Made by a program: the position numbers and the translations under genes. The notes under the pieces were generated by a model, which was not told the DNA's origin, did no database searches, and saw nothing but the letters and a program-made list of their open reading frames with translations. 64,000 nucleotides of DNA from a candidate division Zixibacteria bacterium SM23_81 (GTDB lineage Bacteria > SM23-81), in NCBI GenBank assembly GCA_001304015.1, contig LJUY01000006.1, forward strand, positions 22,605 through 86,604, written 5' to 3'. Below, in pieces: positions 39,215 through 64,000 of this stretch (the stretch's first letter is position 1; every line of letters begins with the position of its first letter).

Positions 39215-39216
39215 AG

Positions 39217-48116: not shown

Positions 48117-48129
48117 TCAATCTGTGGAC

Positions 48130-48765: not shown

Positions 48766-48784
48766 TTTAGGATCCTCCTTGAAC

Positions 48785-50457: not shown

Positions 50458-51981
50458 TTATGGGCTAAAAGAATCCTGAAAAATCCCTTTGAGGACTTTT
50501 CCATCAGTATCAATGGGAATGCCTATTTTTAACATATGAAGTATAGTTGGAAAGAGATCGACTATTTCCGCTCCAAAGAACTGCTTTCCCTTTTGTATAA
50601 TTTTGCCGTGTGCGATGAAAATACCCTCCAAACTGTGATCTCCAGAAGCCCAACCTGTCAATTCATATAATCTCTTTTTATATGGACTCGTGGCATAGTT
50701 TTCGTAGGTGTGAAAAACCAAATCAGGTGCTAGGTCAGAAAAGGGACCATTGAAATATTCCTCACGGTAAAATACATCCCGAATGACGGCATGGTTGTTT
50801 TGAGGATCGCGGGTGTTCAACAAGGCCTGCTTTATAAAACTCCTTAATTTCTCATACTCTTCCCCCTGGCTTACAATACCCTCTGGCTCTCTGCCCCTTA
50901 AATTTACCTGTATCCCAACTTGCTGATCCCCAGCACAATAAGCCTTAGTGTTTTTCCAGGAAACTTGGCTTTTAGGAGAGAGTATCTTCCTTCGGCCCGA
51001 TAAATTCCTTAGAACTTGGCGTCTAAGCTTGTGTATAAAGGGAATGTCCAGCGCTCGTAAGAAAGCGAGAGTTCTGGCTTTCCCCTTGCGGAACTTAAGC
51101 AGGTGGTGGGTCATCAACCAATCATTGACATCAAACTGCTTATGCGCCGACTGAAAACCGTGATCTGAGATAAGAATCAACACGGTGTCTTCATCCAACC
51201 TGGCTCGGATTTCTCCTATAGCACTGTCCAACATCATGAAAAATTCATCTATCAATGGCATATACTTTTTAGACTCTTCAGCATTGAATTCGGGATGAGT
51301 ACCATCGATATACTTCCACAAGCAATGTTGCACTCTATCTGGTCCGGTAAAAACGACTATACAAAAATCTGGCTGATAGAGGTCGAGAAGAAAAAGTGTC
51401 GCCTCTTTTCTTATTGTGGTCATTTTTTTCACGTCTTCAATGAGATCGCTCACTCTATTTTTGTACCACTTCCAGACTAGATTTATGGGGTAGTCTCCGA
51501 TTTTCTCTTTAAGCTTCTTTCCCAGCTCCTCAGGATAGGTGAATGTGCTATTTGTACTCGGGGTAAGCATGCCCGAGATTAAAAAACCATTCACTGGCTG
51601 CGGTGGGTAAGTGAGGGGCACATTTATCACGCCAACCTTTTTGCTATTGCGACTTAAAATTCTCCATAAAGTCTCACTTTTCATTACTTTCGAATGGACA
51701 ACCCTCTTTCGGTAAAAATCGGAAGAGTCAGGGATTCTAAATCCAAAAATGCTGTGTTTCCCGGGTTTTTTCCCGCTCATGAAGGAGGCCCAAGCTGCCA
51801 TGGAATTTGGCGGAATTACAGATTTTAATTCACCAAAGGTCCCTGTTTTAATGAGCTCTGCCAAATTCGGCATTTTGCCCCTGGATATCATTGGGTCCAA
51901 TATTTTGAATGTGGCTCCATCTAAACCAATAACCATCACTTTGCTCTTCACATGTCCTCCATAGATGACCTTTTTATACAA
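50458..51981 (-). CDS. AlkP-superfamily PF01663-like protein, paralog 3
   Basis: VMVIGLDGATF, IPPNSMAAWASF...GKKPGKHSIFGF. 507 aa. The start is uncertain (ATG at 51981 or 51936). Confidence 0.75.
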   Translation of the reverse strand: MYKKVIYGGHVKSKVMVIGLDGATFKILDPMISRGKMPNLAELIKTGTFGELKSVIPPNSMAAWASFMSGKKPGKHSIFGFRIPDSSDFYRKRVVHSKVMKSETLWRILSRNSKKVGVINVPLTYPPQPVNGFLISGMLTPSTNSTFTYPEELGKKLKEKIGDYPINLVWKWYKNRVSDLIEDVKKMTTIRKEATLFLLDLYQPDFCIVVFTGPDRVQHCLWKYIDGTHPEFNAEESKKYMPLIDEFFMMLDSAIGEIRARLDEDTVLILISDHGFQSAHKQFDVNDWLMTHHLLKFRKGKARTLAFLRALDIPFIHKLRRQVLRNLSGRRKILSPKSQVSWKNTKAYCAGDQQVGIQVNLRGREPEGIVSQGEEYEKLRSFIKQALLNTRDPQNNHAVIRDVFYREEYFNGPFSDLAPDLVFHTYENYATSPYKKRLYELTGWASGDHSLEGIFIAHGKIIQKGKQFFGAEIVDLFPTILHMLKIGIPIDTDGKVLKGIFQDSFSP

Positions 51982-53146
51982 TAGCTCGATAAATATCGAT
52001 AACTCTTTCAGCGTTTCTTTTCCAAGTATGGTGCTTTCTTATATGCTCCATAATCTTAGATCCAAGCTCCTTCCGAAGCTTGGAATCATTAACCAGAATG
52101 AGGATTTTCTCTTTCAAGTCCTCTGCATCACCAGGATTTATCAAAATCCCATTTTTGCCATCCTCTATGACTTCTTGAACGGGTGCTGTACGCGGGGCAA
52201 TCACCGGTTTCCCCATGGCCCCGTACTCAAAAATCTTAATTGGCGAACCATTCCAATTGGAGTTGGGCATCACACAAATATCCATTGCTGCAATATGAGC
52301 GGGCACCGCCTCAAAGGGAATCCCACCGGTGAGCGTAAAATGTTCGCTTACGCCTCTGCCTTTTAAATTCTCTTCAAACTGCCTCCTATCCCTAAAGCGA
52401 CCAACTACAAGAAAATGTAGTTCCTTCCTCTCTCTGATCAAATCCTGGGCCAATCTTATGAGAAGCTCTACGCCATGATGTTTGTGCATACTTCCCACAA
52501 ACCCAATGACTATTTTACCTCGCAGACTATATTTATTCCGAATGTCTTGGAAGGCACTGCTAGAATCAAACAATTCAGTATCTACACCATTTGGCAAGAC
52601 ATGTATCTTCCTTGAAGGAACCCCTCTTTTGACAAGATAATCCCTCATAACCCCAGATATAGTGATTATGGCATTCGTACATTTTTCAACTTTTCTTTGA
52701 ATCAATGAGGCCAAGAATGAAAAGTGAGCTGGACCAAACCGACTTCTTGCCTCTATGGGGGCATTGATTTCCAGAATGTGGGGTATTTTGAGATCTCGCG
52801 CTATTGTTGAACTTGCCCAAAAAAAATAGGAATACCTTTCATAAATAAAGTCGGGGATCTCCCTCTTAAAAAAAGACTTATAAGAGCTTAAGAAATTGTA
52901 GTTATAGTATATTTTGTACCCATCTCTCACCATCGAAGCAATAGATAGGGGTAAAATGTACTTCTGGTTTGAGAAAGACAATTTGGCTTGGCTTTCTCTT
53001 GTGCCTTGCCCAGCAATTATGGGGACGACCATATGTCCAAGTTTACGATATGCCTCTATTAAATTGACTATATGAGATGTCGATCCTGTATAAACAGAAT
53101 TATCTATTCTTAGCCCTGGATTCCCAACAACATAAAGAATCTTCAT
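51974..53146 (-). CDS. Glycosyltransferase family 4 (GT-B, retaining)
   Basis: The C-terminal EYGAMGKPVIAPRTAPVQEVIEDGKNGILI motif is the GT1/GT4 E-x7-E region. Typical ~390-aa length. Confidence 0.8.
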   Translation of the reverse strand: MKILYVVGNPGLRIDNSVYTGSTSHIVNLIEAYRKLGHMVVPIIAGQGTRESQAKLSFSNQKYILPLSIASMVRDGYKIYYNYNFLSSYKSFFKREIPDFIYERYSYFFWASSTIARDLKIPHILEINAPIEARSRFGPAHFSFLASLIQRKVEKCTNAIITISGVMRDYLVKRGVPSRKIHVLPNGVDTELFDSSSAFQDIRNKYSLRGKIVIGFVGSMHKHHGVELLIRLAQDLIRERKELHFLVVGRFRDRRQFEENLKGRGVSEHFTLTGGIPFEAVPAHIAAMDICVMPNSNWNGSPIKIFEYGAMGKPVIAPRTAPVQEVIEDGKNGILINPGDAEDLKEKILILVNDSKLRKELGSKIMEHIRKHHTWKRNAERVIDIYRAIV

Positions 53147-53258
53147 GAGGTATCACTGCGTTTCCACTTATGGTTCAAGGTAACATTTTTAGGCACAGCA
53201 GTTGCTTTGATTCCCCTGAATGCGGTGAGAGAACTTGCTTTTTCGACTTTCTCTGCCT

Positions 53259-54410
53259 CTATTCAACAAAGGGATCATCTGCGCTAGCCAAAACTTCCAC
53301 TATTTCCGGTCTCATAATCTCCGAGGCCACCTCAGCGCCCTCGGTGATGATCCCCCGTATTTTGGTCCCGCTGGGAGTTAGCCACGAGTCTTTCTGGTGG
53401 GGACAGGTCTTAGCTGTGGCCATGTTCTCACAGGCTTGACAGTAAAAAGAGTGCTCGAAGAAGAGAGGTTGAATTCCTAGATCGGGAAAATCGGCGAAAA
53501 TCCTGTGTGCGGCATAGGTATCGTAATAATCGCCAACGCCAGCGTGATCCCGTCCGATGATGTGATGGGTACAGCCGAAGTTCTTTCTGACTATGGCGTG
53601 GAAAATGGCCTCTTTGGGCCCCGCGTAGCGCATCTGCCATGGCAGAATGCTCATCACCACCCTGTTCTGAGGATAGAAGTCGTCGATGAGAGTCTGATAG
53701 GCCTTTAGGATCAGCTCATCGGTAAAGTCGCCGCTTTTTTTTCTCCCGATAACTGGATTGATGAACAAACCGTCACAGATTTCCAAAGCACACTTCTGAA
53801 TATATTCGTGGGCTCGGTGGGGCGGATTTCGCGTCTGAAAGGCTACCACCGTATCCCATCTCCTTTTCCGAAATAGATAGCGAGTCTCCTTGGGAGAGAG
53901 ATTATAGCGCTTATATGGTATCCTGATGTCCTCCAGTAAATCCACAGCACCGCTCAAGAAGACATCGTGAAGGCCGAGGAATTTTTTCACTCCAGGATGT
54001 TTTTCATCGTCGGTTCCGAAAACGCCCCTGGCGATTTTCAATTTGTCAAATCGATATTTCTCCTCTAAATGTAATAGGGCCAGAGGAATTCCGGCCTCAT
54101 CCATAAGGGTGAGGGTTTGTCCTTCCTTCAAGAACCTGGCCTGAGATTCCTCCACGGCCAACAGAATGGGAATCGTCCAGGCCAGCCCTTTGGCCAAACG
54201 CCCCTCCTTGACCACAGATTCCACATCGGCGCTGCCCATGAATCCTTCCAGAGGACTGAAGACACCCCGAGCGAGATTCTGGACCTCAGAGACGGTCTCA
54301 GCAGACACGGTCAACTGAAACATTCCAGGAATCTCAGTCAGGATGTCTGCTCCTTTCTCTGGGCTCAATATTCGATTGACCAGTTTTCCACCATGAGGTT
54401 TAATCAACAA
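53259..54410 (-). CDS. sat: Sulfate adenylyltransferase (ATP sulfurylase, single-chain Sat type)
   Basis: QTRNPPHRAHE and GRDHAG motifs. 383 aa. Confidence 0.9.
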   Translation of the reverse strand: MLIKPHGGKLVNRILSPEKGADILTEIPGMFQLTVSAETVSEVQNLARGVFSPLEGFMGSADVESVVKEGRLAKGLAWTIPILLAVEESQARFLKEGQTLTLMDEAGIPLALLHLEEKYRFDKLKIARGVFGTDDEKHPGVKKFLGLHDVFLSGAVDLLEDIRIPYKRYNLSPKETRYLFRKRRWDTVVAFQTRNPPHRAHEYIQKCALEICDGLFINPVIGRKKSGDFTDELILKAYQTLIDDFYPQNRVVMSILPWQMRYAGPKEAIFHAIVRKNFGCTHHIIGRDHAGVGDYYDTYAAHRIFADFPDLGIQPLFFEHSFYCQACENMATAKTCPHQKDSWLTPSGTKIRGIITEGAEVASEIMRPEIVEVLASADDPFVE

Positions 54411-54497: not shown

Positions 54498-55529
54498 CTA
54501 TTGGGAGCTTCTTTTGAACACCCCCTCTCCCCAGGTGCCGGCGTAGACGACATGAGGAGTAAAGGGAGCCACCGCCAGGGCTTTGACATCTACTTCGGTG
54601 AGCCCCTCGTTCCACTGCGCCCAGTTCTGGCCTGCATCAGTGCTTCGATAAACTCCATTGTTGGTAGCGGCGTATAAGCAGTCGGTGTTAGAGGGACTCA
54701 TGCCGATCACCCTCACATCCCTGGTTCCTCCAAATCCTTTGACGACATTGGTCCACAGCCCGGCCGCATTGGTACTCTTGTAAACGCCCATGACGTTTGA
54801 ACCGACATATAAAATATTCGGGTCGATGGGATTGATCAGAACCCATTGAATTCTCGCCGAGGGGCCATTTAGGTTAATCCCATTGTTGCCGACGGACCAA
54901 CTATCGCCGCCATCTTCACTTTTGTAAAAGTTATCGAATTTCCCTCCAGCGTAGACAATCTGGGAATTCTGGGGATGAACAGCCAAAGAGGCACGATTGT
55001 AATAGAAGATATAAAACAAAGTGTCGGCGCCATTATAACTCCTGTTGATACCACCATCACACCCAATGAAGAGGGTGTCCGAATGAGTAGGGTCGGTGGC
55101 TATGCTGTAAATAGTGGGATCCACGAGACCCACCTTTTTCCCCTCCCAACTCTCGCCTCCATCCTCGCTTTTAAAAACTCCAGACCCGTAAGTGCCCACA
55201 TACATTGTTTCCGGATGCAGCGCATCGAAAGCGATGGCGGATATCTGGGAATAAGTCCACCCACTGTCCAATCGCGTCCAAGTTTGGGCACCGTCGGTGC
55301 TTTTATAAAGACCACCCCAAGTACCACTGAAAATAATGTCGGAATTGCTGGGATGAACAGCTAAAAATCGCACAAAAAGATTCTCCAGACCAGAATTAAC
55401 CGCCGACCACTGATTTGAGTCAGAATCAGTGGGCGATTTTTTACCGCAGGATATGGCCAGGATACAAAAAAAGCACCCTAGGAGAAAAAACTTGGCGGCG
55501 ATGGACCTGTCTGTCGAATATAGGTTCAT
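54498..55529 (-). CDS. BNR/Asp-box repeat beta-propeller lipoprotein (Ycf48/sortilin-like)
   Basis: Lipoprotein signal (ILAISCG). Repeated S-x-D-x-G-x-T-W boxes (STDGAQTW, SEDGGESW, SEDGGDSW, STDAGQNW). Confidence 0.7.
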   Translation of the reverse strand: MNLYSTDRSIAAKFFLLGCFFCILAISCGKKSPTDSDSNQWSAVNSGLENLFVRFLAVHPSNSDIIFSGTWGGLYKSTDGAQTWTRLDSGWTYSQISAIAFDALHPETMYVGTYGSGVFKSEDGGESWEGKKVGLVDPTIYSIATDPTHSDTLFIGCDGGINRSYNGADTLFYIFYYNRASLAVHPQNSQIVYAGGKFDNFYKSEDGGDSWSVGNNGINLNGPSARIQWVLINPIDPNILYVGSNVMGVYKSTNAAGLWTNVVKGFGGTRDVRVIGMSPSNTDCLYAATNNGVYRSTDAGQNWAQWNEGLTEVDVKALAVAPFTPHVVYAGTWGEGVFKRSSQ

Positions 55530-55559: not shown

Positions 55560-57041
55560 CTAATCCCCCTGGGTTGATGTCATATCATATAATCCACCGT
55601 AAAGGTTCGTGAAGCTGGTCTCTATCACCGTGGGGAAAGTTCTCTTCATATAGTCTTTCAACTTTCCCTCCGGATCCATCAGCCATGGCCTGCCCAGGAC
55701 CAACCACGCCCGCTGGTGACCTTGAACGCGCGCCGCGATCATCTTCTCATGGAAGCTAGGTGACCAAAAAGCTGTGTGGACGGTGAGTGGACCCTGGTAG
55801 TAGTATGTGAACGGCTTCAGGGGTGCGGCCAAGATTACATCTCCATCTTCAGAATGTGCGCTTATATATTGCGCAGCCCACCGATAGCGCGCTTTGGCGT
55901 GTCTATCTTGGAAGTAATGGCCGTGGACAGAATATAAAGTGACAACGACGACGACTCCCATGAGCCCCCACCGGATGATCCCCCTTCGTGGGGCCAGAAG
56001 GCCTCGGGTCAGGATGAGTCCATAGGCTGGCAAGGCCACTGAGGCATAACGTACATTATAGGAGATCTGTGGCCACACCAGAGATACCAGACACCCGCCC
56101 ACGATGGGGGTTATCAGATAAAGCAGAATGAAAACCAGCCGCTCCCGATCCCGCCACAGAGATCGCAGACCCAGAGCAAAGATGGCTGCGAATAAAAGGG
56201 CTACTGGCAGAATCTGACTTAGGTAAGGTCGAAGGGTGCTCAGGGAGGCCGACCAGTGCAGCTCCGCTACAGAAGGGCCATAGCTAAATCCCAGGCTAAA
56301 TGCAAAAAAAGTATAGGGAACTGAGAAAACTTGAAGAGGATTTCCGCCAGCTCCTTGGGTCAAGAAGACCACATACCGCCCACCCCCGAGGAGAAGATAA
56401 ACGATGGGCAGGACCATAATTGCTACAATTCCCAGGGAATAGCCAAATCGACGTATGACAGGGCGGTACGTCTTCAGGAATATAAAGAAGAATGCCACTT
56501 GGCACAATAGGACGAAGATGGCATAATAATGTGTGTATATGGCCAATCCCATAGTTACAGCCCACCATACGCCTGGGCGACCCCTCTGCTCTTGAAGGAA
56601 CTTGACGAAATATAGCGCCGATGCTGCGCTCAGCAAGATGAGCAGACTGTACATCCTGGCATCCTGGGAATACCAGATGTGAAATGGGGAGATGGCCAAT
56701 AAAAAAGCGCACACAAGACCGTGTTTGGTATCCCAAAGGCTTCTCCCCAGCAGATAGGCAATCCCTAGGGTGGCTATCCCGAAAAGAGCTGGTAGCAATC
56801 TGATCATCACATCGCTGCGACCCAAGTAAAGCCAAAAATGAAGCAGGATGTGATACAGAACAGGCGTTTGGCAAAAGCGGATGGCTACTACCCCCAGGTC
56901 CCTGGCCGAGAGGCAGACACTATAAACTTCGTCATAAGAGAAACTCTGGCCACCCAGCCTCACGAGCCTGAGAACGGTGCCCAGCACCAAGATGAGCAAC
57001 AGATAGATGCTCACACGCTTTTTGGGGATGGCTTCATTCAT
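55560..57041 (-). CDS. GT-C fold membrane glycosyltransferase (ArnT/PMT-like, GT39/GT83, COG1807)
   Basis: About 12 predicted TM helices. First periplasmic loop has SFSYDEVY (the DE motif of PMT/ArnT-type transferases). Hydrophilic C-terminal domain. Confidence 0.75.
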   Translation of the reverse strand: MNEAIPKKRVSIYLLLILVLGTVLRLVRLGGQSFSYDEVYSVCLSARDLGVVAIRFCQTPVLYHILLHFWLYLGRSDVMIRLLPALFGIATLGIAYLLGRSLWDTKHGLVCAFLLAISPFHIWYSQDARMYSLLILLSAASALYFVKFLQEQRGRPGVWWAVTMGLAIYTHYYAIFVLLCQVAFFFIFLKTYRPVIRRFGYSLGIVAIMVLPIVYLLLGGGRYVVFLTQGAGGNPLQVFSVPYTFFAFSLGFSYGPSVAELHWSASLSTLRPYLSQILPVALLFAAIFALGLRSLWRDRERLVFILLYLITPIVGGCLVSLVWPQISYNVRYASVALPAYGLILTRGLLAPRRGIIRWGLMGVVVVVTLYSVHGHYFQDRHAKARYRWAAQYISAHSEDGDVILAAPLKPFTYYYQGPLTVHTAFWSPSFHEKMIAARVQGHQRAWLVLGRPWLMDPEGKLKDYMKRTFPTVIETSFTNLYGGLYDMTSTQGD

Positions 57042-57780
57042 GAGTATTTTTCACCTCGGGGACTCTCTGTTGCATCTGTTCAATTCCCAGAAGGATCTTC
57101 AACGCCGAGGCCACGTATCCCCACCCATCCCGCATAAATCGAGTTTTAGCCTGCCCCTTTTCTCGAGGTCGATACACCACGGGTATCTCGCCAACGGCCG
57201 CGGAGTCGCGAATGGCATTGTACATGAGGCGGAAATGAAAATCCCCATACCCATAAAAAATCCGATTCAGATCCCATCGATTCAACAGAGATCGTTTAAC
57301 GGCCAGGAATCCATTGGTATTATCGGTTGTCTTCAGTCCCAAGGTAATCTTGAGAAACCAATTGATGGCCAGGCTGAATATGCGGGCCCGGGCGTTCCCC
57401 TGAAAACCCCCCAGGTGCAAGTAGCGAGAGCCACTGACCAAGTCGTATTCCCCCACCTTCAGGAGCAGCGCCGGCAGGTCTTCAGGATTATGGCTGAAAT
57501 CGGCATCCATCAGAACCACAACATCCGCGTAAGATGCTTTAATACCTGCCTTTATCGCGGTGGCCAGACCCCTTTGGCCATTGCGCAAGACGAGCTTGAC
57601 CTGACTCATAGTTGAGCAGTTCTGCCTGACGACATCCGCTGTTCCGTCTGGGCTGTCATCGTCCACCACCACGATCTGGTAGTCGATGCCGGAATCGGCC
57701 ATGATGCGAGAGAGACTCTGGATCAGAGGGACGATGTTCTCCCTCTCATTGTATGTGGGTAGAATTACCGCAACATTCAT
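57034..57780 (-). CDS. Polyprenyl-phosphate glycosyltransferase, GT2 (ArnC/DPM1-like, short form)
   Basis: ILPTYNEREN, VVVDDDSPDGT and LMDADFSH (DXD-equivalent) motifs. 248 aa without C-terminal TM helices. Confidence 0.85.
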   Translation of the reverse strand: MNVAVILPTYNERENIVPLIQSLSRIMADSGIDYQIVVVDDDSPDGTADVVRQNCSTMSQVKLVLRNGQRGLATAIKAGIKASYADVVVLMDADFSHNPEDLPALLLKVGEYDLVSGSRYLHLGGFQGNARARIFSLAINWFLKITLGLKTTDNTNGFLAVKRSLLNRWDLNRIFYGYGDFHFRLMYNAIRDSAAVGEIPVVYRPREKGQAKTRFMRDGWGYVASALKILLGIEQMQQRVPEVKNTHE

Positions 57781-58907
57781 AGTTTCTTAAATCCTAAAAA
57801 ATTCTTGATCTCCTGGCAGACGAAGACAATTTGATCTTCCGTTAGGGTCGCAGATGAGGGCAGAGAGAGACCTTGCCCGTAAACGCGATCGGTGGTGGGA
57901 AACTCCTCCGACCACCTCCCCCGATAACATGGCTGACGATGAAGGGGATGAAAAAAACGCCTAGTGCCAACACCCGCTTTGCTCAAGTGCGCACCCAAGG
58001 CCCCGGGATCGTCCACCAAGATGTTGGTGAACCACGGCACGGCATCACAACGGGGGTCGCCAGCGGGAAAGCGGACAGTTTCCAATTCGGATAAGCATGC
58101 CCTATACAGCTCAATGCTGTTTCGCTTTCTTTCCAAAATGTGATCCAGTCTGGTTAACTGGGCCAGGCCAAGAGCTGCCTGGAGGTCGGTGAAGCAAAAA
58201 TTGTACCCGATGTGATGATGGATAAAAGTTCCCTTCTCCGTGCGCCCATGGTTTTTCAGAATTAAGCACCTTCGCTGGATCTGCTCATCATCGGTGGTGA
58301 TCATTCCCCCCTGGCCGGTGGTGATGGTCTTATTCCCGTAAAAGGAAAAACAGCCCACAGCGCCCAAACCTCCCACATGTCGATCCTGGAATTTAGCCCC
58401 CACTCCTTGGGCGGCATCCTCGACGACGACGAGACCATGCCGTCTGGCAATGGCTAAGATGGCCTCCATGTCTGCCGATTGACCGTAAAGATGCACTGGC
58501 ATGAGAGCGCGAGTCCTGGAGGAGATCTTCTCCTCGACGCTGGCTGGGTCTATATTGAAGGTGTTCTCGTCGATGTCTGCCAGTACCGGCGTCGCACCGG
58601 CCCATATCACCGAATTGGCTGTGGCGATGAAAGTCAGGTCTGGTATTATCACCTCATGGCCTGCTCCCACCCCAAGGGCTTTGAGACAGCAGTAGAGCCC
58701 GGCGGTGGCGTTGTTCACAGCAACGGCGTGACGACACCCAACCAGCTCAGCAAACTTCATCTCGAACAGATGAGTTTTCTCCCCCTCGATGAGCCAGGTG
58801 GACTCCACCACCTCAGCGAGCTGGCGGAGCTCTTCTTCACCAATCCAGGGCTCAATCTGCGGGATCACGCCTTCCTCATGGCCACCGATGTGCTTCTTTA
58901 CCCCCAT
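57777..58907 (-). CDS. DegT/DnrJ/EryC1/StrS-family PLP-dependent sugar aminotransferase (ArnB-like)
   Basis: VNNATAGL and the lysine motif FSFYGNKTITTGQGGM. Confidence 0.85.
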   Translation of the reverse strand: MGVKKHIGGHEEGVIPQIEPWIGEEELRQLAEVVESTWLIEGEKTHLFEMKFAELVGCRHAVAVNNATAGLYCCLKALGVGAGHEVIIPDLTFIATANSVIWAGATPVLADIDENTFNIDPASVEEKISSRTRALMPVHLYGQSADMEAILAIARRHGLVVVEDAAQGVGAKFQDRHVGGLGAVGCFSFYGNKTITTGQGGMITTDDEQIQRRCLILKNHGRTEKGTFIHHHIGYNFCFTDLQAALGLAQLTRLDHILERKRNSIELYRACLSELETVRFPAGDPRCDAVPWFTNILVDDPGALGAHLSKAGVGTRRFFHPLHRQPCYRGRWSEEFPTTDRVYGQGLSLPSSATLTEDQIVFVCQEIKNFLGFKKL

Positions 58908-58921
58908 CTCTTTCGGGTTCC

Positions 58922-60823
58922 TTAAAAGTAATACCAGATGGTCCTGTAATCATCCAAGTTCTCACCCATCTCCTCAAGGCGTCTCAGATAGCTCAGGATG
59001 GGGACATCTACGTGGATGAAGCTATCCACTGGAGAGATGTTCCGCTCCCAGGGAAAAAATTCGTAGATTCGCCGACCATCTGGGGTCAACATGATCACGT
59101 CGTGATCCTGCCAAGCGATAAGGTAGCTTTTTCCCAACCGGGGAACGTTGAAGACGGCGGCATCAGAGCGGACCATTCCCGAGAACAGCCGAACTTCCTC
59201 CCTTTTTTCCTGAAGCAGCCGAGCAATGGGAGCCCGGTAGGACTCCGTCTCCTCTTTTCCTTTGGCGACAAAGGTGTAGTAAGGTTCGATGCCTATAACC
59301 CGCAATTGTCGTCGAAGAGCTGCGCTTTCAAACCTCCTACTGTTGTATGTGGTAAAGACCAGCTGATTGTACACCGGGATGCCCCTGCGACGAATTCTGG
59401 CCACAGCCATGACCATCTCTGGAGTCACCTCGTAGAGGTGCTCCACGTGGGTAACTACGACGATCTCCCTTTTAGCTGGCACGTGGTACTTGCCCAGCAG
59501 GCTCACCAGAGAGGCTGTGAACCTCTGAGGGATGGTAACCAGAAGCCGCGTTCCTAGCCGAATCCGCTCTACATGGTCAATCTCGCTGAGGTTTCTCAAA
59601 AGAGCGTCGAGCTTATTGTCGCTCATCACCAGGGGATCTCCACCGGTGACCAGCACCTCTCTAATGGCCGGATGGTTCCTGATCCAGGTGAGCGCCGCCC
59701 TTATCGCCTTTTGGGAAGCCAAGGCCCGAGGGCCCAGCACCTGATGAATCTCCCAATTTCTCTGGCAGTAAACGCAGATCTGCGGACAAGAGTTATAAGG
59801 CTTAAAAGCCACAATCTGCGGATAGCGTCTGGTGATCAAATCCATGGGAGAGGTGTCATGCTCGCCCATATAGTCCGCGGAGAGTTCTCGATCCTTTTTA
59901 TGCTGGATCATCCAACTTACATAGCTTTCCGGGGGAATAACCTGAGCCCTGATGGCGCGATCGTTTCGGTGGCTGTCAGTCCTGTCTAGCAGAGATAAGT
60001 AAAATGGCGTAATGCCAAAAGGGAGGCCGTTGGCTCGGGCACGTGCAATCTGCCGGCCCTCTTCCTCGGTCAGTTCCACCAGGCAGTTCAGGGTTCGCTC
60101 ATCTCGAATGACCTGTTGTAGATGCCAATGCCAATCATCCCAATCCTTCCTCCGGCTACTAAAATAGCGCAGGATCCGTTGTCTGTTTCGCTGGCGTCTC
60201 CTAACTACCTTGGGGTTCAGACCCGATGGATAGCGTGCCATGAACCTGTCCATAGAACGGTACATGCCATCTAGAAGTCGGGACCTCGCCTGAGCGGCTC
60301 TCCTCCCTCTCATGTCCAAGTAAGTCGGACGCCTCATATGGTCGTAGATGCCGGATTGGCCACTTATTCCCCGGAAAAGGTGGATCAGATCCTCCACGAA
60401 ATCCTCGGTCACCGACTGCAAAACCTCCACATCATCACCCCTAATTAGGTGATACAGATAATAGAGAGAACTCACACCGGTGACCTTTTCATTCCGTTTG
60501 GCCAGAATATTCCTGAACACGGCCAAGCACTCCCGTATGTTCGCTCGCTCCAGGTACTGGGTCTCTTTGAATCCCATCTCCAAAGCTCTCTGCTGGCTGT
60601 CCAGGAATTGATAGAGGCGACGGCGGGCTTCCTCGAGACTCCTGCTCCGGGATAGGATAGTGCAGATTTGCGGAGACGCATTCTTGAGCCGTTGTAGCAA
60701 GGACTTCTCCATCTGCATTGGTTCAGAAGAAGCTTGACCCACTTTGCTCTTGGTCGAAACCCCCGTTTCGGTCACGGTTTGTCCTCCGTTAGTTTCTGGG
60801 GCAATCGGAGACCTCGGGAACAA
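58922..60823 (-). CDS. KamA-family radical SAM aminomutase with ~215-aa Arg-rich N-terminal extension
   Basis: CPQICVYCQR (C-x3-C-x2-C), a KamA-like region (DWDDWHWHLQQ, ITPFYLSLLDRTD) and downstream GGDPL. Several internal Met residues make the exact start uncertain. The ORF overlaps the upstream gene by 35 nt. Confidence 0.8.
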   Translation of the reverse strand: MFPRSPIAPETNGGQTVTETGVSTKSKVGQASSEPMQMEKSLLQRLKNASPQICTILSRSRSLEEARRRLYQFLDSQQRALEMGFKETQYLERANIRECLAVFRNILAKRNEKVTGVSSLYYLYHLIRGDDVEVLQSVTEDFVEDLIHLFRGISGQSGIYDHMRRPTYLDMRGRRAAQARSRLLDGMYRSMDRFMARYPSGLNPKVVRRRQRNRQRILRYFSSRRKDWDDWHWHLQQVIRDERTLNCLVELTEEEGRQIARARANGLPFGITPFYLSLLDRTDSHRNDRAIRAQVIPPESYVSWMIQHKKDRELSADYMGEHDTSPMDLITRRYPQIVAFKPYNSCPQICVYCQRNWEIHQVLGPRALASQKAIRAALTWIRNHPAIREVLVTGGDPLVMSDNKLDALLRNLSEIDHVERIRLGTRLLVTIPQRFTASLVSLLGKYHVPAKREIVVVTHVEHLYEVTPEMVMAVARIRRRGIPVYNQLVFTTYNSRRFESAALRRQLRVIGIEPYYTFVAKGKEETESYRAPIARLLQEKREEVRLFSGMVRSDAAVFNVPRLGKSYLIAWQDHDVIMLTPDGRRIYEFFPWERNISPVDSFIHVDVPILSYLRRLEEMGENLDDYRTIWYYF

Positions 60824-61946
60824 GGTTCTCTCCCCTGGAGACAGACTCGATGGAGGGTGCCAGCAGTCCCTTTTTCCGGGACATCATCCGAACCAAACGG
60901 GTCAGACCGGTTCCATACGTGACTAGTCCGCTCACTAACAGCAAGGACCAGTAACATATCAAACGACTGGTGAGAATGGTGACACCTCTGAATGCCCTGG
61001 CTAACCCGATGAGGGAGAACAGGGAGAACTGAACGGCATCGATCTGTCCCACAGCGCCTGGCGTGATGGGAATAGTGGCCACTAAGTTGACCGTGAAAGA
61101 AACGAAAGCCACCCAGGGCCATGGCAGGGGATAGTCCAGGGCCATAAGCACCAGATACGTGACCAAAGCGTCACAGAACCATATGATCAGCGTGAGGAAA
61201 AACGCCAGGAGTATCCGCCCCCGGTTTCTGGCGATGAGTCGCACATTGTCCATCAACCGAAATATGAAAAAGATAAACCTTTGATACCTTGCCGAGGCAA
61301 ATACACCCCGTAGCCTTTTCTCCGTTTTGGGCACGAAATACAGGAACATCAACAACAGGAGAAAACAGGAGAAGGTCACTTGATACAGGCTCAAGATCCA
61401 CCTGGGTAGCCCAAAGCTGAGGATGAAAAAGCTGAACACGAGGGAACAACTCAGGATAACAAACCCATCCAGGCCACGCTCCACGAAAATGCTGCCCAAT
61501 CCGACTCGAAGGGAGATCTTCCGATCGCTTCTCAGCAGATATGCCCGGGCGACATCGCCAGCCCTGGCGGGCACAACAGCGCTGATGAACCAGCCGACCA
61601 ACAAATAGGAAAAAAGCGTGACGGAGGATAGCTTTTGATCCAAAGCCCCCAAGAGAAGCTTCCAACGCAGCGTGCGCACCGCAAAGGAAGAGTAATATAA
61701 TGCAAAAGCAGCCACAATGAACCGTGGGTCCAGAGTCCGAAACTTCTCCCAGGACGCCTGGAAACCAGACAGCTTTAAGATGGCCAAAAAGGTCACCACT
61801 CCCAAGGCGACCAGAGTGGCTGCCCGTCGCATGCTGACCTTCTTGGAAACTGGAAAAGCCCCTGTTGACATCAGCTCAATTCCCACGATCGTACTCGCTG
61901 CCCCTCTCCACGGGATTGAAGGTCCCCCTGGTGATGAGACAGACAA
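60789..61946 (-). CDS. Polytopic membrane protein, flippase-like (LPG-synthase TM-domain / UPF0104-like)
   Basis: About 8 hydrophobic helices with an RWKLLL motif region. This is the family that commonly partners with GT2 enzymes. The likely start is the ATG at 61871 or 61832. Confidence 0.6.
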   Translation of the reverse strand: MSVSSPGGPSIPWRGAASTIVGIELMSTGAFPVSKKVSMRRAATLVALGVVTFLAILKLSGFQASWEKFRTLDPRFIVAAFALYYSSFAVRTLRWKLLLGALDQKLSSVTLFSYLLVGWFISAVVPARAGDVARAYLLRSDRKISLRVGLGSIFVERGLDGFVILSCSLVFSFFILSFGLPRWILSLYQVTFSCFLLLLMFLYFVPKTEKRLRGVFASARYQRFIFFIFRLMDNVRLIARNRGRILLAFFLTLIIWFCDALVTYLVLMALDYPLPWPWVAFVSFTVNLVATIPITPGAVGQIDAVQFSLFSLIGLARAFRGVTILTSRLICYWSLLLVSGLVTYGTGLTRLVRMMSRKKGLLAPSIESVSRGENLVPEVSDCPRN

Positions 61947-63237
61947 ATGGGTAAATCATCTCCACGACAAAGGGCAGCGGGTCTTCCAGCGCAAAATCGT
62001 CATAGGATGTGTCACGCCGAAAAAATTTCAGGTAATCCAAAAGGACCCTATGCTGGCTTATGGGCCTTCTGAGATAGTCGCACAGGGCCCGCCAGTCGCC
62101 CCAAAGCCAGCGCGTCTTGACGCCCAGTGGATATTCTAATACGGGATCAACATCCCCATCCACGGCCATGCGATACAGCAAATAAGGGAAGTCAACCCCA
62201 GAGGCGACACCCTGGTACAGCGAGCCCCAAAACCGCGGATTGATCTCCATGAGAACCGGCCCCCGGTCCTCGGTGAGAGTAAACTCAGCCTCGGCGATGC
62301 CGTGCCATTCCAAGCGCTCCAGAACTTGATGGGCAATCTGCTCCATCGCGTCGTTCCTGACGCTGGTTCGCAACACCGCTGTGCCTCCCTCAATAGGGAA
62401 CTCTCGCAAGAACTTGAAGGTGAATTTTGCGCGCAGTTTTCCCCGATTATACAACATGCATACCGAGTGTTTGGCACCCGCCACGTACTCCTGGATAACG
62501 GGCGCATCTTCTGGCTGGAACCCAAATCGAGATGTCAGCTCCCCATAGGCCTCCTTTAGCTCCCTAGAGGAGTTCACGTAACGAAGTCCAAAGGCTCCGT
62601 GAGCTCGCCGCGGTTTGACCACTGCCGGATAGCTGAGCTCGTCAGCGATCTCCTCCAGCTCTTCTATCTGGCCAACATGGTAAGTTTTGGGGATGGGTAT
62701 TCCCAACTGCTGGGCCAAAGCATAAAATCGATCCTTAGAATGAAGAGTCATAATCTGGTCGTAGTCGGGCAGAGGAACTTTCAATACAGGCGTCAATCGG
62801 TCTCGATAGCGAGCGATGATGAAACCCTCCTCATGCATGGGCATTAGCACGCGACACCCGAACTCTCGAGCCTTCCGGGCCAGAGTTTCAATAAACCGCT
62901 CCGGGTACAGGTATGGCGAGGGGTAGACGAATCGGCCATGACAATATCGAGAGTAAAAACACATAGACGGGGAAAAGCTATCTCCCGCCACGACCTTAAT
63001 TCCTCTCCGGGATAGGCTCTTGAGGGCCGTATAGGCCATCCGATTTCTCCCAAAAGTGACCAGAGCGCTCACAATGGTGATACCCCCGGTGGGCAGATCT
63101 CCTTTGCCCGAGAACTGAGAGAGGAGCTGAGATTCATGGGCCTGATGTGCCTCCATGGTCAGGAGATTTGCCTTCCTCCCCACCATGCCAAACTTCTTCT
63201 TCCGTGGCCATCTTGGTCTCCCAGACCCAGCGACCAC
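61876..63237 (-). CDS. ATP-grasp domain ligase
   Basis: The central fold shows KVVAGD pre-ATP-grasp, AVVKPRRAHGAFG and EINPRFWGS (the E-x-N motif). The start is probably an internal Met at about 63156. Confidence 0.7.
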   Translation of the reverse strand: MVAGSGRPRWPRKKKFGMVGRKANLLTMEAHQAHESQLLSQFSGKGDLPTGGITIVSALVTFGRNRMAYTALKSLSRRGIKVVAGDSFSPSMCFYSRYCHGRFVYPSPYLYPERFIETLARKAREFGCRVLMPMHEEGFIIARYRDRLTPVLKVPLPDYDQIMTLHSKDRFYALAQQLGIPIPKTYHVGQIEELEEIADELSYPAVVKPRRAHGAFGLRYVNSSRELKEAYGELTSRFGFQPEDAPVIQEYVAGAKHSVCMLYNRGKLRAKFTFKFLREFPIEGGTAVLRTSVRNDAMEQIAHQVLERLEWHGIAEAEFTLTEDRGPVLMEINPRFWGSLYQGVASGVDFPYLLYRMAVDGDVDPVLEYPLGVKTRWLWGDWRALCDYLRRPISQHRVLLDYLKFFRRDTSYDDFALEDPLPFVVEMIYPFVCLITRGTFNPVERGSEYDRGN

Positions 63238-64000
63238 CGTTCTGCCGATACCAGTCGATGGTCCGTCCTAATCCCTCCTCAAGCGATATCTGAGGCCGCC
63301 AGTTAAACAGGGTCATGGCCTTAAAATAGCTGCAATTCAAGCGCTCCACGTCCAATGGACGGAGTCTGACCTTTTCAACCTGGATGTCAACTTGCTGTCG
63401 TTCCATAAGTCGAGCGATGATCTGGGCCAGCTCCTCCACAGACCAATCCCGTCCTTGTCCCAGGTTGACCACTTCACCCACGGCCTTATCGCACTGCATC
63501 AGCTCGATGGCCCCTTTGACAGCGTCGTCCACGTATGTCAAGTCTCTTCGGGCTTTCACGTTCCCCAGCTTCAGACGATTGCCCCTGTCCAGCTGCGTAA
63601 TCAGCTCGGGGATGATGTAGGGGTGTGTTTCGCGAGGGCCATAAGTATTGAACTGGCGCAGGATAATGATGGGCAGATTTTGCTCCTTGTACAAACTATA
63701 GCAGAGCCTATCGGCGGCCAGCTTGCTCACGGCGTAGGTGGAACAGGGCCTCAGGGGATGGTGTTCGTCCATGGGCACATATCGTGCGCTGCCATAAACC
63801 TCCGAGGAGGAATACTGGAGAACCCTCTGAACCCCGGCATCTTTGCAGGCCAACATCACGTTTAAAGCCCCAGTGGCGTTTACCTCAAAGAACTTGCGAG
63901 GTCGGTCGTAACAATGCGGGATGTAAGGCTCGGCGGCCAAATTGAACACGCAGTCAATTCCATTCTGGCGCATAATGTCATTCAGGTTCGGATCTAAGAT
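63134..64000 (-). CDS. NAD-dependent sugar-nucleotide epimerase/dehydratase (extended SDR; UXS / ArnA-C-terminal-like). The 5' end lies beyond the window.
   Basis: FNLAA, Y-x3-K (YAVSK) and RQFNTYGPRE motifs. The reading frame continues upstream of the first in-frame ATG to the window edge. Confidence 0.8.
   Translation of the reverse strand: MLDPNLNDIMRQNGIDCVFNLAAEPYIPHCYDRPRKFFEVNATGALNVMLACKDAGVQRVLQYSSSEVYGSARYVPMDEHHPLRPCSTYAVSKLAADRLCYSLYKEQNLPIIILRQFNTYGPRETHPYIIPELITQLDRGNRLKLGNVKARRDLTYVDDAVKGAIELMQCDKAVGEVVNLGQGRDWSVEELAQIIARLMERQQVDIQVEKVRLRPLDVERLNCSYFKAMTLFNWRPQISLEEGLGRTIDWYRQNGGRWVWETKMATEEEVWHGGEEGKSPDHGGTSGP

What the first reader, a model, noticed from the sequence alone, without database searches (positions are those of the whole stretch)
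57034..64000. Arn-like amino-sugar lipid-carrier module with a radical-SAM aminomutase and an ATP-grasp ligase added
Seven consecutive co-directional genes encode an extended-SDR sugar-nucleotide dehydratase/decarboxylase-like enzyme, an ATP-grasp ligase, a flippase-like polytopic membrane protein, a KamA-family radical SAM 2,3-aminomutase, a DegT aminotransferase, a short GT2 polyprenyl-phosphate glycosyltransferase and a GT-C ArnT/PMT-like transferase. SDR, DegT, GT2 and GT-C are the functional equivalents of ArnA-C-terminal domain, ArnB, ArnC and ArnT, the pathway that attaches 4-amino-4-deoxy-L-arabinose to lipid A through an undecaprenyl-phosphate carrier. The aminomutase and the ATP-grasp ligase have no counterpart in arn operons. 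A plausible chemistry is formation of a beta-amino acid (beta-lysine or similar) and its amide ligation to the sugar 4-amino group or another amine, giving a cationic aminoacyl-amino-sugar delivered to an envelope acceptor. I know of no characterised pathway with this gene set.
Basis: partly seen in the sequence, partly recalled or inferred. Interest (0 to 1): 0.85.

Follow-up and report, generated by a model that had tools for sequence, protein, structure and literature searches.

The report
Glycan-modification operon with recruited glutamate aminomutase
An uncultured Zixibacteria lineage has inserted a radical-SAM aminomutase that most likely makes beta-glutamate, plus an ATP-grasp ligase, into an operon that builds a 4-amino sugar on a lipid carrier and moves it to the cell envelope; this predicts an amino-acid-decorated surface sugar that has not been described.

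Summary
Seven tightly packed minus-strand genes encode a 4-keto-sugar-forming SDR, an ATP-grasp ligase, an MprF-type flippase-like membrane protein, a KamA-family radical SAM enzyme, a DegT aminotransferase, a DPM1/ArnC-like GT2 and a PMT_2 GT-C. The GT-C (55560-57041) lies just outside the stated coordinates, and the SDR is cut by the window end.

The block is conserved gene for gene in every related Zixibacteria locus with enough flank.

The interpretation needs three corrections:
- **Not an arn operon.** It is an analogous three-component lipid-carrier glycosylation module. The SDR and DegT score best as LegB/RmlB-type dehydratase and perosamine/LegC-type aminotransferase, not ArnA/ArnB.
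- **Aminomutase is glutamate-type, not lysine-type.** It belongs to a widespread ~600-aa long-form KamA family. This family carries the glutamate 2,3-aminomutase signature (LAM D293→K, D330→N) and includes Methanococcus and Methanotorris proteins. Beta-glutamate is therefore more likely than cationic beta-lysine.
- **The aminomutase is a recent recruit.** All 156 loci of the main family lack the glyco genes. Relatives of the ATP-grasp, in contrast, recur beside DegT, deacetylase and FemAB-like genes in polysaccharide loci.

Best model: ATP-dependent beta-glutamylation of a 4-amino sugar, followed by export on polyprenyl phosphate. This is a new variant of a known kind, and nothing has been tested experimentally.

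The parts
63134..64000 (-). 3' part of an extended-SDR NDP-sugar 4-keto-forming enzyme (4,6-dehydratase-like). The N-terminus lies beyond the window end; the full gene is 339 aa in L001.
   Evidence: Pfam GDP_Man_Dehyd/Epimerase. For the full-length protein, NCBIfam LegB gives 270 bits, RmlB 182 and ArnA 53. PDB best hits are Pal 6BWL, RmlB 1e-40 and UXS 2e-36. The active-site motif reads SSSEVYG. An RmlD-type 4-reductase and a GalE-like SDR lie directly upstream in L001, L003, L168 and L169.
61876..63156 (-). ATP-grasp carboxylate-amine ligase (426 aa from ATG; the mechanical ORF runs to 63237).
   Evidence: Pfam ATP-grasp_3 and ATPgrasp_Ter. AF2 pLDDT 87.5. Foldseek matches ATP-grasp folds at E~4e-20 with no specific functional neighbour. 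Closest solved sequence is 2PN1, only 2e-8. Relatives at 38-46% id lie in polysaccharide loci beside DegT, deacetylase and FemAB-like genes.
60789..61832 (-). Stand-alone LPG_synthase_TM (MprF flippase-type, UPF0104/PplT) polytopic membrane protein, 347 aa. Candidate flippase for the lipid-linked sugar.
   Evidence: Pfam PF03706, 162 bits; TIGR00374, 145 bits. At least 6 hydrophobic segments. The same domain is fused to the Dol-P glycosyltransferase in archaeal AglD (PMC5898192). An LPG_synthase_TM gene also overlaps the ATP-grasp relative in L167.
58922..60775 (-). Long-form KamA-family radical SAM/PLP aminomutase (617 aa from GTG with GGAGGA upstream). Predicted glutamate 2,3-aminomutase.
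   Evidence: TIGR00238 gives 317 bits against a cut-off of 199; the best equivalog is Glu 2,3-aminomutase at 238 bits, below its cut-off. CxxxCxxC and Arg134 are kept; the PLP lysine is read by eye in the motif NVPRLGK because the alignment gapped that column. LAM D293->K and D330->N; zinc cysteines are lost. 54% id to the Methanotorris igneus protein and 47% to the M. maripaludis protein. It sits in a monophyletic 18-member subclade.
57777..58907 (-). DegT/DnrJ/EryC1 NDP-4-keto-sugar aminotransferase (376 aa).
   Evidence: Pfam 392 bits. NCBIfam LegC 305, PseC 282, ArnB 236, all below their cut-offs. PDB best hit is GDP-perosamine synthase at 8e-77; ArnB 5e-63.
57034..57780 (-). Short soluble-type GT2, polyprenyl-phosphate glycosyltransferase-like (248 aa, no TM segment).
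   Evidence: PDB best hits are DPMS 5MLZ 4.6e-26, ArnC 2.8e-16 and GtrB 1e-10. NCBIfam top hits are AglJ, ArnC, PgfS, Dol-P-hexose transferase and PpgS. The motif LMDADFSH matches the DPM1-type DAD motif (sequence; motif recalled from memory).
55560..57041 (-). GT-C fold glycosyltransferase, PMT_2/ArnT-like (493 aa). It lies outside the finding's stated coordinates.
   Evidence: Pfam PMT_2, 50.9 bits. TIGR03663, 64 bits, below cut-off. About 10 hydrophobic segments. An Asp-Glu pair (SYDEVY, residues 35-40) follows TM1 directly, where GT-C enzymes carry their catalytic acid.
54498..55529 (-). BNR/Sortilin-repeat predicted lipoprotein, always directly after the GT-C. Role unknown (acceptor or glycan-processing protein).
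   Evidence: Pfam Sortilin-Vps10; NCBIfam F510_1955-like, 116 bits, below cut-off. Signal peptide with a Cys lipobox-like LAISC. Conserved in L003, L085, L168 and L169.
53259..54410 (-). ATP sulfurylase, a conserved member of the syntenic block.
   Evidence: NCBIfam PRK04149, 526 bits against a cut-off of 387. Same position in L003, L085, L168 and L169.

Best explanation
The operon is a three-component, lipid-carrier-dependent envelope glycosylation module of a Zixibacteria lineage. Its sugar is additionally N-acylated with a beta-amino acid, most likely beta-glutamate.

Proposed steps (only the family assignments are shown; the chemistry is inferred):
1. The SDR oxidises and dehydrates an NDP-hexose to an NDP-4-keto-6-deoxy sugar.
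2. DegT converts it to the NDP-4-amino-4,6-dideoxy sugar.
3. The long-form KamA enzyme isomerises L-glutamate to beta-glutamate, using radical SAM, PLP and a [4Fe-4S] cluster.
4. The ATP-grasp ligase activates one carboxylate of beta-glutamate as an acyl phosphate and joins it to the sugar 4-amino group. The result is a zwitterionic 3-aminoglutaryl amide. This could happen on the nucleotide sugar or on the lipid-linked sugar.
5. The DPM1/ArnC-like GT2 transfers the sugar to polyprenyl phosphate.
6. The MprF-type flippase-like protein moves the lipid-linked sugar to the outer leaflet.
7. The PMT_2 GT-C transfers it to a periplasmic acceptor. The acceptor is unknown. Candidates are the Wzx/Wzy-made polysaccharide of the surrounding locus, LPS, or a protein such as the adjacent BNR lipoprotein.

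The aminomutase gene was recruited from a widespread, normally stand-alone family. The archaeal members of that family make the osmolyte beta-glutamate.
For: - **Families and operon structure:**
- **GT2:** its nearest solved relatives are all polyprenyl-P glycosyltransferases (DPMS, ArnC, GtrB).
- **GT-C:** it carries an Asp-Glu pair after TM1.
- **Flippase-like protein:** the LPG_synthase_TM domain is a proven lipid flippase in MprF. It is fused to a Dol-P glycosyltransferase in AglD and serves GlcN-PG.
- **SDR and DegT:** the SDR scores best as a 4,6-dehydratase. It sits beside an RmlD-type 4-reductase that passes its equivalog cut-off (273 against 224). That reductase needs a 4-keto-6-deoxy substrate. 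DegT is closest to GDP-perosamine synthase and LegC.
- **KamA substrate signature:** D293->K and D330->N, with Arg134, the PLP Lys and the cluster Cys residues retained. This holds in the window protein, M. igneus and M. maripaludis alike.
- **KamA model scores:** Glu 238, Lys 196, Arg 168, EpmB 132 bits.
- **Physiology of family members:** M. igneus accumulates beta-glutamate (PMC1224877). Tunckanat et al. 2022 report an archaeal glutamate 2,3-aminomutase that makes the osmolyte (cited).
- **Function probably retained:** only 10 mostly conservative clade-specific substitutions separate the operon-borne subclade from the main family.
- **Conserved position:** KamA lies between the flippase-like gene and DegT, with 13-14 nt spacers, in all 8 loci of the subclade that have flanks.
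- **ATP-grasp relatives:** they recur immediately beside DegT (JGI contig 0SuTGsAN, L170/171). They always occur with DegT and/or a sugar deacetylase, that is, with enzymes that create a free sugar amine.
Against: - No step is shown experimentally.
- The KamA scores below the curated cut-off of the bacterial Glu 2,3-aminomutase equivalog (238 against 650). Substrate assignment rests on two residues and on homology of 47-54%.
- The details of the archaeal enzyme study (locus MmarC7_1783, ~160-aa N-terminal extension) are recalled from memory. The paper could not be read.
- The SDR motif SSSEVYG is also that of UDP-glucuronate decarboxylases, and UXS is only about 15 bits behind RmlB among solved relatives. 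An Ara4N-like pentose is therefore not excluded.
- The direction of the ATP-grasp ligation is unknown. In two relatives the neighbour is an Orn/DAP/Arg-type decarboxylase. That would fit an amine nucleophile attacking a sugar carboxylate.
- DegT and deacetylases are common in glycan loci, so their co-occurrence is weak evidence.
- The flippase role of the LPG_synthase_TM protein for polyprenyl-linked sugars has not been demonstrated for any member.
Confidence: 0.45

Rival explanations
1. Same operon, opposite ligation polarity. The ATP-grasp activates a sugar or polymer carboxylate (a uronic acid), and the amino group of beta-glutamate is the nucleophile. The product is an anionic N-(uronoyl)-beta-glutamate decoration. 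The DegT amino sugar is then a separate component.
For: ATP-grasp amidation of a glucuronate C6 carboxylate within a capsule pathway is established for Cj1438C (PMC11800379). Two ATP-grasp relatives sit next to Orn/DAP/Arg-type decarboxylases, which make amines.
Against: No UDP-sugar 6-dehydrogenase lies in the conserved block. Cj1438C is a TupA-like ATP-grasp, a different subfamily. DegT adjacency of relatives is more frequent than decarboxylase adjacency.
Confidence: 0.17
2. One reading: the aminomutase makes beta-lysine (or beta-arginine), and the product is a cationic aminoacyl amino sugar that lowers envelope charge, as Ara4N does.
For: It is a KamA-family member with all catalytic motifs. 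Sources annotate relatives as 'lysine 2,3-aminomutase'. A cationic decoration would have an obvious selective value.
Against: Both lysine epsilon-ammonium ligands of LAM are replaced: D293->K and D330->N. The Lys would repel a cationic side chain. Lys and Arg aminomutase models score lower than the Glu model. The family includes proteins of beta-glutamate-accumulating methanogens.
Confidence: 0.07
3. The ATP-grasp and the LPG_synthase_TM protein form a tRNA-independent analogue of MprF. The ligase attaches beta-glutamate to a membrane lipid head group (phosphatidylglycerol or a glycolipid) and the TM protein flips it. The glycosyltransferases act in a parallel pathway.
For: ATP-grasp and LPG_synthase_TM genes are adjacent here and overlap in the unrelated locus L167. 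The only proven substrates of this flippase family are modified phospholipids.
Against: The MprF synthase domain (DUF2156) is absent. Most ATP-grasp relatives have no LPG_synthase_TM neighbour. The gene lies inside a tight operon with DegT, GT2 and GT-C. Fusion of this TM domain to a Dol-P glycosyltransferase (AglD) fits a polyprenyl-sugar role.
Confidence: 0.1
4. There is no chemical link. The aminomutase makes free beta-glutamate as a compatible solute, as in methanogens. It merely sits in, or is co-regulated with, an envelope operon.
For: The wider family is stand-alone in 156 of 156 loci. The subclade shows almost no active-site change.
Against: The gene keeps an invariant internal position with 13-14 nt spacers across loci that have diverged to 64% identity. 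The subclade is monophyletic with a long stem. The co-conserved ATP-grasp otherwise lacks an obvious substrate supplier.
Confidence: 0.1
5. The beta-amino acid feeds the two-module NRPS that lies 13 kb downstream on the same strand, for example to build a glyco-lipopeptide.
For: MbtH, two C-A-T modules, a PPTase and hydrolases are co-directional with the glycan genes in this window.
Against: No NRPS lies within 10 kb in the syntenic loci L003, L168 and L169. The NRPS is separated from the operon by gaps of 287-297 nt and by other genes.
Confidence: 0.04

Closest known systems
Arn (PmrHFIJKLM) pathway for 4-amino-4-deoxy-L-arabinose on lipid A
   Same: The logic is the same: NDP-4-keto sugar, DegT-type 4-transamination, GT2 transfer to undecaprenyl phosphate, flipping, then GT-C transfer on the periplasmic side. 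ArnB, ArnC and ArnT belong to the same superfamilies as the DegT, GT2 and GT-C here.
   Different: No gene reaches an Arn equivalog cut-off. There is no formyltransferase domain and no ArnE/F SMR flippase; an MprF-type TM protein takes that place. The SDR scores best as a 4,6-dehydratase rather than a UDP-GlcA decarboxylase. An aminomutase and an ATP-grasp ligase are added.
Three-component periplasmic glycosylation systems (GtrA/GtrB/GtrC; mycobacterial PpgS/Rv3779 GalN system)
   Same: A polyprenyl-P GT2, a small flippase and a GT-C are encoded together. The GT2 here hits GtrB (1e-10) and the PpgS model.
   Different: The flippase candidate is of the LPG_synthase_TM type, not GtrA. The donor sugar is tailored by four extra enzymes. 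The description of these systems is from memory of the literature.
Long-form (archaeal-type) glutamate 2,3-aminomutase of Methanococcus maripaludis (Tunckanat et al., Biochemistry 2022)
   Same: Same protein family: ~600 aa with an N-terminal extension, 47% identity to the M. maripaludis protein and 54% to the M. igneus protein. The Lys/Asn substrate signature is identical.
   Different: The archaeal and most bacterial members are stand-alone genes for an osmolyte. Here the gene is embedded in a glycosylation operon. That the characterised locus is this 594-aa protein is inferred from the recalled abstract, not read.
Cj1438 C-terminal ATP-grasp amidoligase of the Campylobacter jejuni HS:2 capsule
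   Same: An ATP-grasp enzyme in a polysaccharide locus forms an amide between a sugar and a small amine. A dedicated PLP enzyme encoded nearby makes that amine (PMC11800379).
   Different: It is a TupA-like ATP-grasp subfamily that activates the sugar carboxylate. No detectable specific similarity to the ATP-grasp here.
Blasticidin S-type peptidyl nucleoside pathways (arginine 2,3-aminomutase plus amide ligation of the beta-amino acid to a 4-amino sugar)
   Same: A KamA-family aminomutase supplies a beta-amino acid that ends up N-linked to the 4-amino group of a DegT-derived sugar. This is recalled from memory; no paper was retrieved.
   Different: That is a soluble secondary metabolite of actinomycetes with no lipid carrier, flippase or GT-C, and the side chain is cationic.
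MprF, AglD and the GlcN-PG flippase (LPG_synthase_TM / PplT domain proteins)
   Same: Same membrane domain (162 bits). Known or proposed role in flipping head-group-modified lipids.
   Different: Stand-alone protein without the aminoacyl-PG synthase domain. GlcN_PG_flip model gives only 24 bits against a cut-off of 320.

Membership tests
Arn (Ara4N) operon | ArnA C-terminal UDP-glucuronate oxidative decarboxylase | tested here: not met
   The ArnA model gives 53 bits against a cut-off of 777. LegB 270 and RmlB 182 score higher. Among solved structures UXS is close behind RmlB, so decarboxylase chemistry is not strictly excluded.
Arn (Ara4N) operon | ArnA N-terminal formyltransferase, ArnD deformylase and ArnE/F flippase | tested here: not met
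   No formyltransferase or SMR-type gene lies in the operon or in L001 upstream. A polysaccharide deacetylase lies further downstream only.
Arn (Ara4N) operon | ArnB, ArnC and ArnT orthology | tested here: not met
   ArnB model 236/631 and ArnC model 66/529. The GT-C hits only the general PMT_2 family. The relationship is superfamily level only.
Three-component lipid-carrier glycosylation module | GT2 of the polyprenyl-phosphate glycosyltransferase type | tested here: met
   The three best solved relatives are DPMS, ArnC and GtrB. The top NCBIfam hits are AglJ, ArnC, PgfS, Dol-P-hexose transferase and PpgS.
Three-component lipid-carrier glycosylation module | GT-C fold transferase encoded next to the GT2 | tested here: met
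   PMT_2, 50.9 bits against a cut-off of 26.1. About 10 hydrophobic segments, a DE pair after TM1 and an 8-nt overlap with the GT2.
Three-component lipid-carrier glycosylation module | Dedicated flippase for the polyprenyl-P sugar | tested here: inconclusive
   A flippase-like LPG_synthase_TM protein is present. Activity of this family on polyprenyl-linked sugars has not been shown; the AglD fusion is suggestive.
KamA-family radical SAM 2,3-aminomutase | CxxxCxxC cluster motif, PLP lysine, alpha-carboxylate Arg, and family HMM above cut-off | tested here: met
   TIGR00238, 317 bits against a cut-off of 199. C125/C129/C132 and R134 equivalents are conserved. The PLP lysine is read by eye in NVPRLGK; the MAFFT alignment put a gap at the K337 column.
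Glutamate 2,3-aminomutase | Lys and Asn in place of LAM Asp293 and Asp330 (signature as recalled from Ruzicka and Frey 2007) | tested here: met
   K and N are found at these columns in the window protein and in all aligned family members. They are invariant in an 18-sequence alignment.
Glutamate 2,3-aminomutase | Score above the curated equivalog cut-off (TIGR04368, bacterial short form) | tested here: not met
   238 bits against a cut-off of 650. The protein belongs to a separate long-form clade.
Glutamate 2,3-aminomutase | Conversion of L-glutamate to beta-glutamate | not testable with these tools
   Requires an anaerobic enzyme assay or metabolite analysis.
EpmB (EF-P beta-lysylation) | EpmB equivalog score | tested here: not met
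   132 bits against a cut-off of 369. No efp or epmA-like gene was seen among the window ORFs that were scanned; not every ORF was scanned.
ATP-grasp superfamily | ATP-grasp fold and family HMM | tested here: met
   ATP-grasp_3, 48.7 bits against a cut-off of 23.2. Model pLDDT 87.5 with Foldseek E~4e-20 to biotin carboxylases and 2PN1. The substrates cannot be read from this.
MprF | C-terminal aminoacyl-phosphatidylglycerol synthase domain fused to the flippase domain | tested here: not met
   Only PF03706 is found in the 347-385 aa protein.

The most novel reading that the evidence does not exclude
Beta-glutamate, so far known only as a free osmolyte and as a precursor in a few antibiotics, is used here as a structural building block of the cell envelope. 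It would be ligated without tRNA, by a new ATP-grasp family, to a lipid-carried 4-amino sugar. An MprF-type flippase and a GT-C transferase would then export it. The related ATP-grasp, DegT and FemAB-like modules in many polysaccharide loci would then mark a broader, uncharacterised class of aminoacylated surface glycans.
Probability: 0.35. Interest if true: 0.75.

Novelty: new variant of a known kind. Interest (0 to 1): 0.6.

Why it matters
If the model is right, four things follow:
- It adds a radical-SAM aminomutase and an ATP-grasp ligase to the toolkit of lipid-carrier-dependent envelope glycosylation.
- It predicts a new sugar substituent, a 3-aminoglutaryl group.
- It gives a testable function to two large uncharacterised families. 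One is the long-form KamA enzymes of bacteria, found in at least 593 species genomes. The other is a polysaccharide-locus ATP-grasp family.
- It offers a concrete system for testing whether MprF-type flippase domains move polyprenyl-linked sugars.

The finding also shows a housekeeping osmolyte enzyme being recruited into a surface-modification operon in an uncultured phylum.

Tried and rejected
- **Exact look-up of the 633-aa ORF** found nothing. The called gene starts 16 codons later, at a GTG.
- **Arn membership** was tested and rejected on equivalog scores.
- **EpmB** was rejected.
- **A conserved partner for the wider long-KamA family** was sought by clustering all neighbours within 6 kb. 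Nothing general emerged. ABC-type proteins occurred in 19 loci and saccharopine-dehydrogenase-like genes in about 10 Bacteroidales loci.
- **Solved-structure sequence searches** for the flippase-like protein and the GT-C gave no hit.
- **The fold search of the ATP-grasp model** gave only generic ATP-grasp enzymes and no clue to substrate.
- **The two key aminomutase papers** (Ruzicka and Frey 2007; Tunckanat 2022) are not held. Their content is cited from memory and from citing papers.
- **Literature searches** for a KamA + ATP-grasp + amino-sugar system, and for beta-glutamate in polysaccharides, found nothing relevant.
- **NRPS A-domain specificity** was not analysed.
HMM scores and signature residues were used instead.

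Full report
**1. What is there**

Between 55560 and the window end, seven genes lie head to tail on the minus strand.

| Gene | Coordinates | Key evidence |
|---|---|---|
| Extended SDR | 63134->64000 | GDP_Man_Dehyd/Epimerase, E 1.7e-49 |
| ATP-grasp | 61876-63156 | ATP-grasp_3, ATPgrasp_Ter |
| Flippase-like membrane protein | 60789-61832 | LPG_synthase_TM 162 bits; TIGR00374 145 bits |
| KamA-family radical SAM | 58922-60775 | TIGR00238, 317 bits against a cut-off of 199 |
| DegT aminotransferase | 57777-58907 | 392 bits |
| Short GT2 | 57034-57780 | 248 aa, no TM segment |
| PMT_2 GT-C | 55560-57041 | 50.9 bits, about 10 hydrophobic segments |

Intergenic distances are -23, 43, 13, 14, -4 and -8 nt.

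Two details differ from the finding as written. The GT-C lies outside the stated start (57034). The SDR is cut by the window end. An identical public contig (ENA ERZ27275891 k141_3465535, locus L001) continues upstream. It carries a GalE-like SDR, an RmlD that passes its cut-off (273 bits against 224), a Wzx flippase, a Wzy_C protein and a WecA/MraY-type transferase.

**2. Conservation and taxon**

The operon keeps the same gene order in L003, L004, L085, L086, L087, L168 and L169, where the KamA is 64-77% identical. In the long loci the order is:

Wzx - GT4 - Phosphodiest x2-3 - RmlD - GalE-like - SDR - ATP-grasp - flippase-like - KamA - DegT - GT2 - GT-C - BNR/Sortilin lipoprotein - ATP sulfurylase - polysaccharide deacetylase - ....

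**3. The aminomutase**

The protein is about 200 residues longer at the N-terminus than lysine 2,3-aminomutase. It aligns with LAM (2A5H) over residues 225-537.

Curated models rank glutamate 2,3-aminomutase first at 238 bits. Lysine follows at 196, arginine at 168 and EpmB at 132. All are below their equivalog cut-offs.

I aligned the protein to the LAM sequence. I recalled that sequence from memory. Its residues at the 11 literature-numbered positions came out as expected (Cys125/129/132, Arg134, Cys268, Asp293, Asp330, Lys337, Cys375/377/380). The result:
- The cluster cysteines and Arg134 are conserved. The PLP lysine is read by eye in NVPRLGK, because the alignment gapped that column.
- The two aspartates that hold the lysine epsilon-ammonium are Lys and Asn.
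- The zinc cysteines are absent.

Lys/Asn at these positions is the signature by which glutamate 2,3-aminomutase was first recognised (Ruzicka and Frey 2007; from memory, the paper is not held).

Full-length homologues at 46-54% identity form a large family, with at least 593 confirmed hits among species genomes. Its members span many bacterial phyla and Methanococcales.
- The M. maripaludis cluster (594 aa, e.g. A4FXI7) and the M. igneus protein carry the same signature.
- M. igneus accumulates beta-glutamate (PMC1224877).
- An archaeal glutamate 2,3-aminomutase that produces this osmolyte was reported by Tunckanat et al. 2022 (cited). From memory of the abstract, it is MmarC7_1783, with an N-terminal extension of about 160 aa. 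That fits 594 aa against about 430 aa.

I therefore assign the window enzyme as a probable glutamate 2,3-aminomutase. Beta-lysine is unlikely.

**4. The aminomutase is a recruit**

In 156 loci of the main family no homologue of the ATP-grasp, flippase-like, GT2 or GT-C gene occurs within up to 10 kb. Of these loci, 53 have at least 5 kb on both sides and 93 have at least 5 kb on one side. One locus, L073, has an unrelated DegT. No other neighbour family is general.

The operon-borne proteins (P0001-P0018) form a monophyletic group with a long stem in a neighbour-joining tree. Yet they differ from the main family at only ten strongly conserved positions, mostly conservatively. The simplest reading is an unchanged reaction in a new context.

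**5. The ATP-grasp**

No characterised close relative exists. The best solved sequence is 2PN1 at 2e-8. The AF2 model (pLDDT 87.5) matches generic ATP-grasp enzymes.

Outside the Zixibacteria clade, relatives at 38-46% identity occur in Wzx/Wzy, exosortase or archaeal glycan loci. The seven distinct contexts examined were:

| Context | Neighbours of the ATP-grasp relative |
|---|---|
| JGI contig 0SuTGsAN | DegT directly adjacent |
| L170/171 | DegT directly adjacent; FemAB-like; deacetylase |
| L164/165 | DegT two genes away; Orn/DAP/Arg-type decarboxylase; FemAB-like; deacetylase |
| Second JGI contig | Decarboxylase directly adjacent; two polysaccharide deacetylases in the locus |
| Methanolobus (L166) | FemAB-like, deacetylase, radical SAM; DegT in the locus |
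| L167 | Overlapping LPG_synthase_TM gene; FemAB-like; deacetylase |
| Zixibacteria operon (this window) | DegT in the operon; deacetylase downstream in relatives |

Every context has an enzyme that creates a free sugar amine. The decarboxylase neighbours keep the opposite polarity alive, in which an amine attacks a sugar carboxylate, as in Cj1438C.

**6. The carrier part**

- **GT2.** The nearest solved relatives are dolichol-P-mannose synthase, ArnC and GtrB. It carries an MDADFSH motif of the DPM1 type.
- **GT-C.** It has an Asp-Glu pair right after TM1.
- **Flippase-like protein.** The LPG_synthase_TM domain flips lysyl-PG in MprF. It is fused to the Dol-P glycosyltransferase AglD and is associated with GlcN-PG.

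Together these form a three-component lipid-carrier glycosylation module. It is analogous to Arn, Gtr and PpgS/Rv3779 systems, but it is not an arn operon. Arn equivalog models fail, and there is no formyltransferase and no ArnE/F.

**7. The sugar**

The SDR scores best with LegB (270 bits) and RmlB (182 bits) models. DegT scores best with LegC and with GDP-perosamine synthase. An RmlD-type reductase sits in the same block. This points to a 4-amino-4,6-dideoxyhexose.

The SSSEVYG motif and the close UXS scores leave an Ara4N-like pentose possible.

**8. Surroundings**

The minus-strand block continues downstream to about 35.8 kb. It contains ATP sulfurylase, APS kinase, three alkaline-phosphatase-superfamily proteins, a GT4, MbtH, two NRPS modules, a PPTase, hydrolases and a deacetylase. 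The NRPS part is not present within 10 kb in the syntenic loci of relatives. I therefore treat it as a separate, window-specific neighbour.

**9. Verdict**

- **Best model (confidence about 0.45).** A beta-glutamyl-4-amino sugar is assembled in the cytoplasm, carried on polyprenyl phosphate, flipped by the MprF-type protein and transferred by the GT-C to an unknown envelope acceptor.
- **Rivals.** Opposite ligation polarity (0.17); an MprF-like lipid aminoacylation (0.10); mere co-location of an osmolyte gene (0.10); beta-lysine (0.07); NRPS supply (0.04).
- **Novelty.** I found no described pathway with this gene set. It is a new variant of a known kind.
- **Status.** It is interesting mainly because it predicts new chemistry and gives functions to two large unstudied families, but everything beyond family assignment is inference.

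Noticed in passing
window 36845-46457 (minus strand): An MbtH-like gene, two NRPS modules (C-A-T, and docking-C-A-T), a PPTase and two alpha/beta hydrolases lie co-directional with the glycan genes. They are absent within 10 kb of the syntenic operon in L003, L168 and L169. A-domain specificities were not analysed.
   Followed up: partly
window 46755-54410: PAPS-synthesis genes (ATP sulfurylase 53259-54410, APS kinase 48130-48765) are interleaved with three Phosphodiest (alkaline-phosphatase superfamily) proteins and a GT4. No recognisable sulfotransferase is present. Phosphodiest genes and ATP sulfurylase also accompany the operon in relatives, so a sulfated glycan with an unidentified sulfotransferase is possible.
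   Followed up: partly
window 54498-55529: A BNR/Sortilin-repeat predicted lipoprotein (F510_1955-like glycosylhydrolase family, below cut-off) always follows the GT-C by about 30 nt in the syntenic loci. It may be the acceptor or a glycan-processing partner.
   Followed up: partly
L005-L163 (long-KamA family loci): The ~600-aa KamA family with the Glu-type signature is found in at least 593 species genomes across many bacterial phyla. It includes the cultured Prolixibacter denitrificans (L063). The gene is nearly always stand-alone, which suggests that beta-glutamate synthesis is far more widespread in bacteria than documented.
   Followed up: partly
L030, L051, L054, L068 and about six other Bacteroidales loci: The long-KamA gene is followed within 1-2.5 kb by two saccharopine-dehydrogenase-like genes (lysine-ketoglutarate reductase type and glutamate-forming type).
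   Followed up: no
L020, L023, L034: Two long-KamA paralogues lie on one contig. They are adjacent in a Bacillota MAG (L023) and about 3 kb apart in two Vulcanimicrobiota MAGs (L020, L034).
   Followed up: no
L164/L165, L166, L167, L170/L171: A recurrent module of ATP-grasp + FemAB-like (Acetyltransf_6) + DegT and/or DUF2334/polysaccharide deacetylase occurs in exosortase, EPS and archaeal (Methanolobus) glycan loci. Some copies also have PHP and B12-radical SAM genes. It looks like an uncharacterised system for peptide or amino-acid decoration of amino sugars.
   Followed up: partly
window 16339-19314 (minus strand): A 991-aa ORF has no Pfam match. It lies directly downstream of a TonB-dependent-receptor-like/CarboxypepD_reg protein (19345-22350).
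   Followed up: no
window 33515-35479: An alpha-L-arabinofuranosidase-like protein carries a C-terminal Por_Secre_tail (type IX secretion sorting domain). This is consistent with an FCB-group organism.
   Followed up: no
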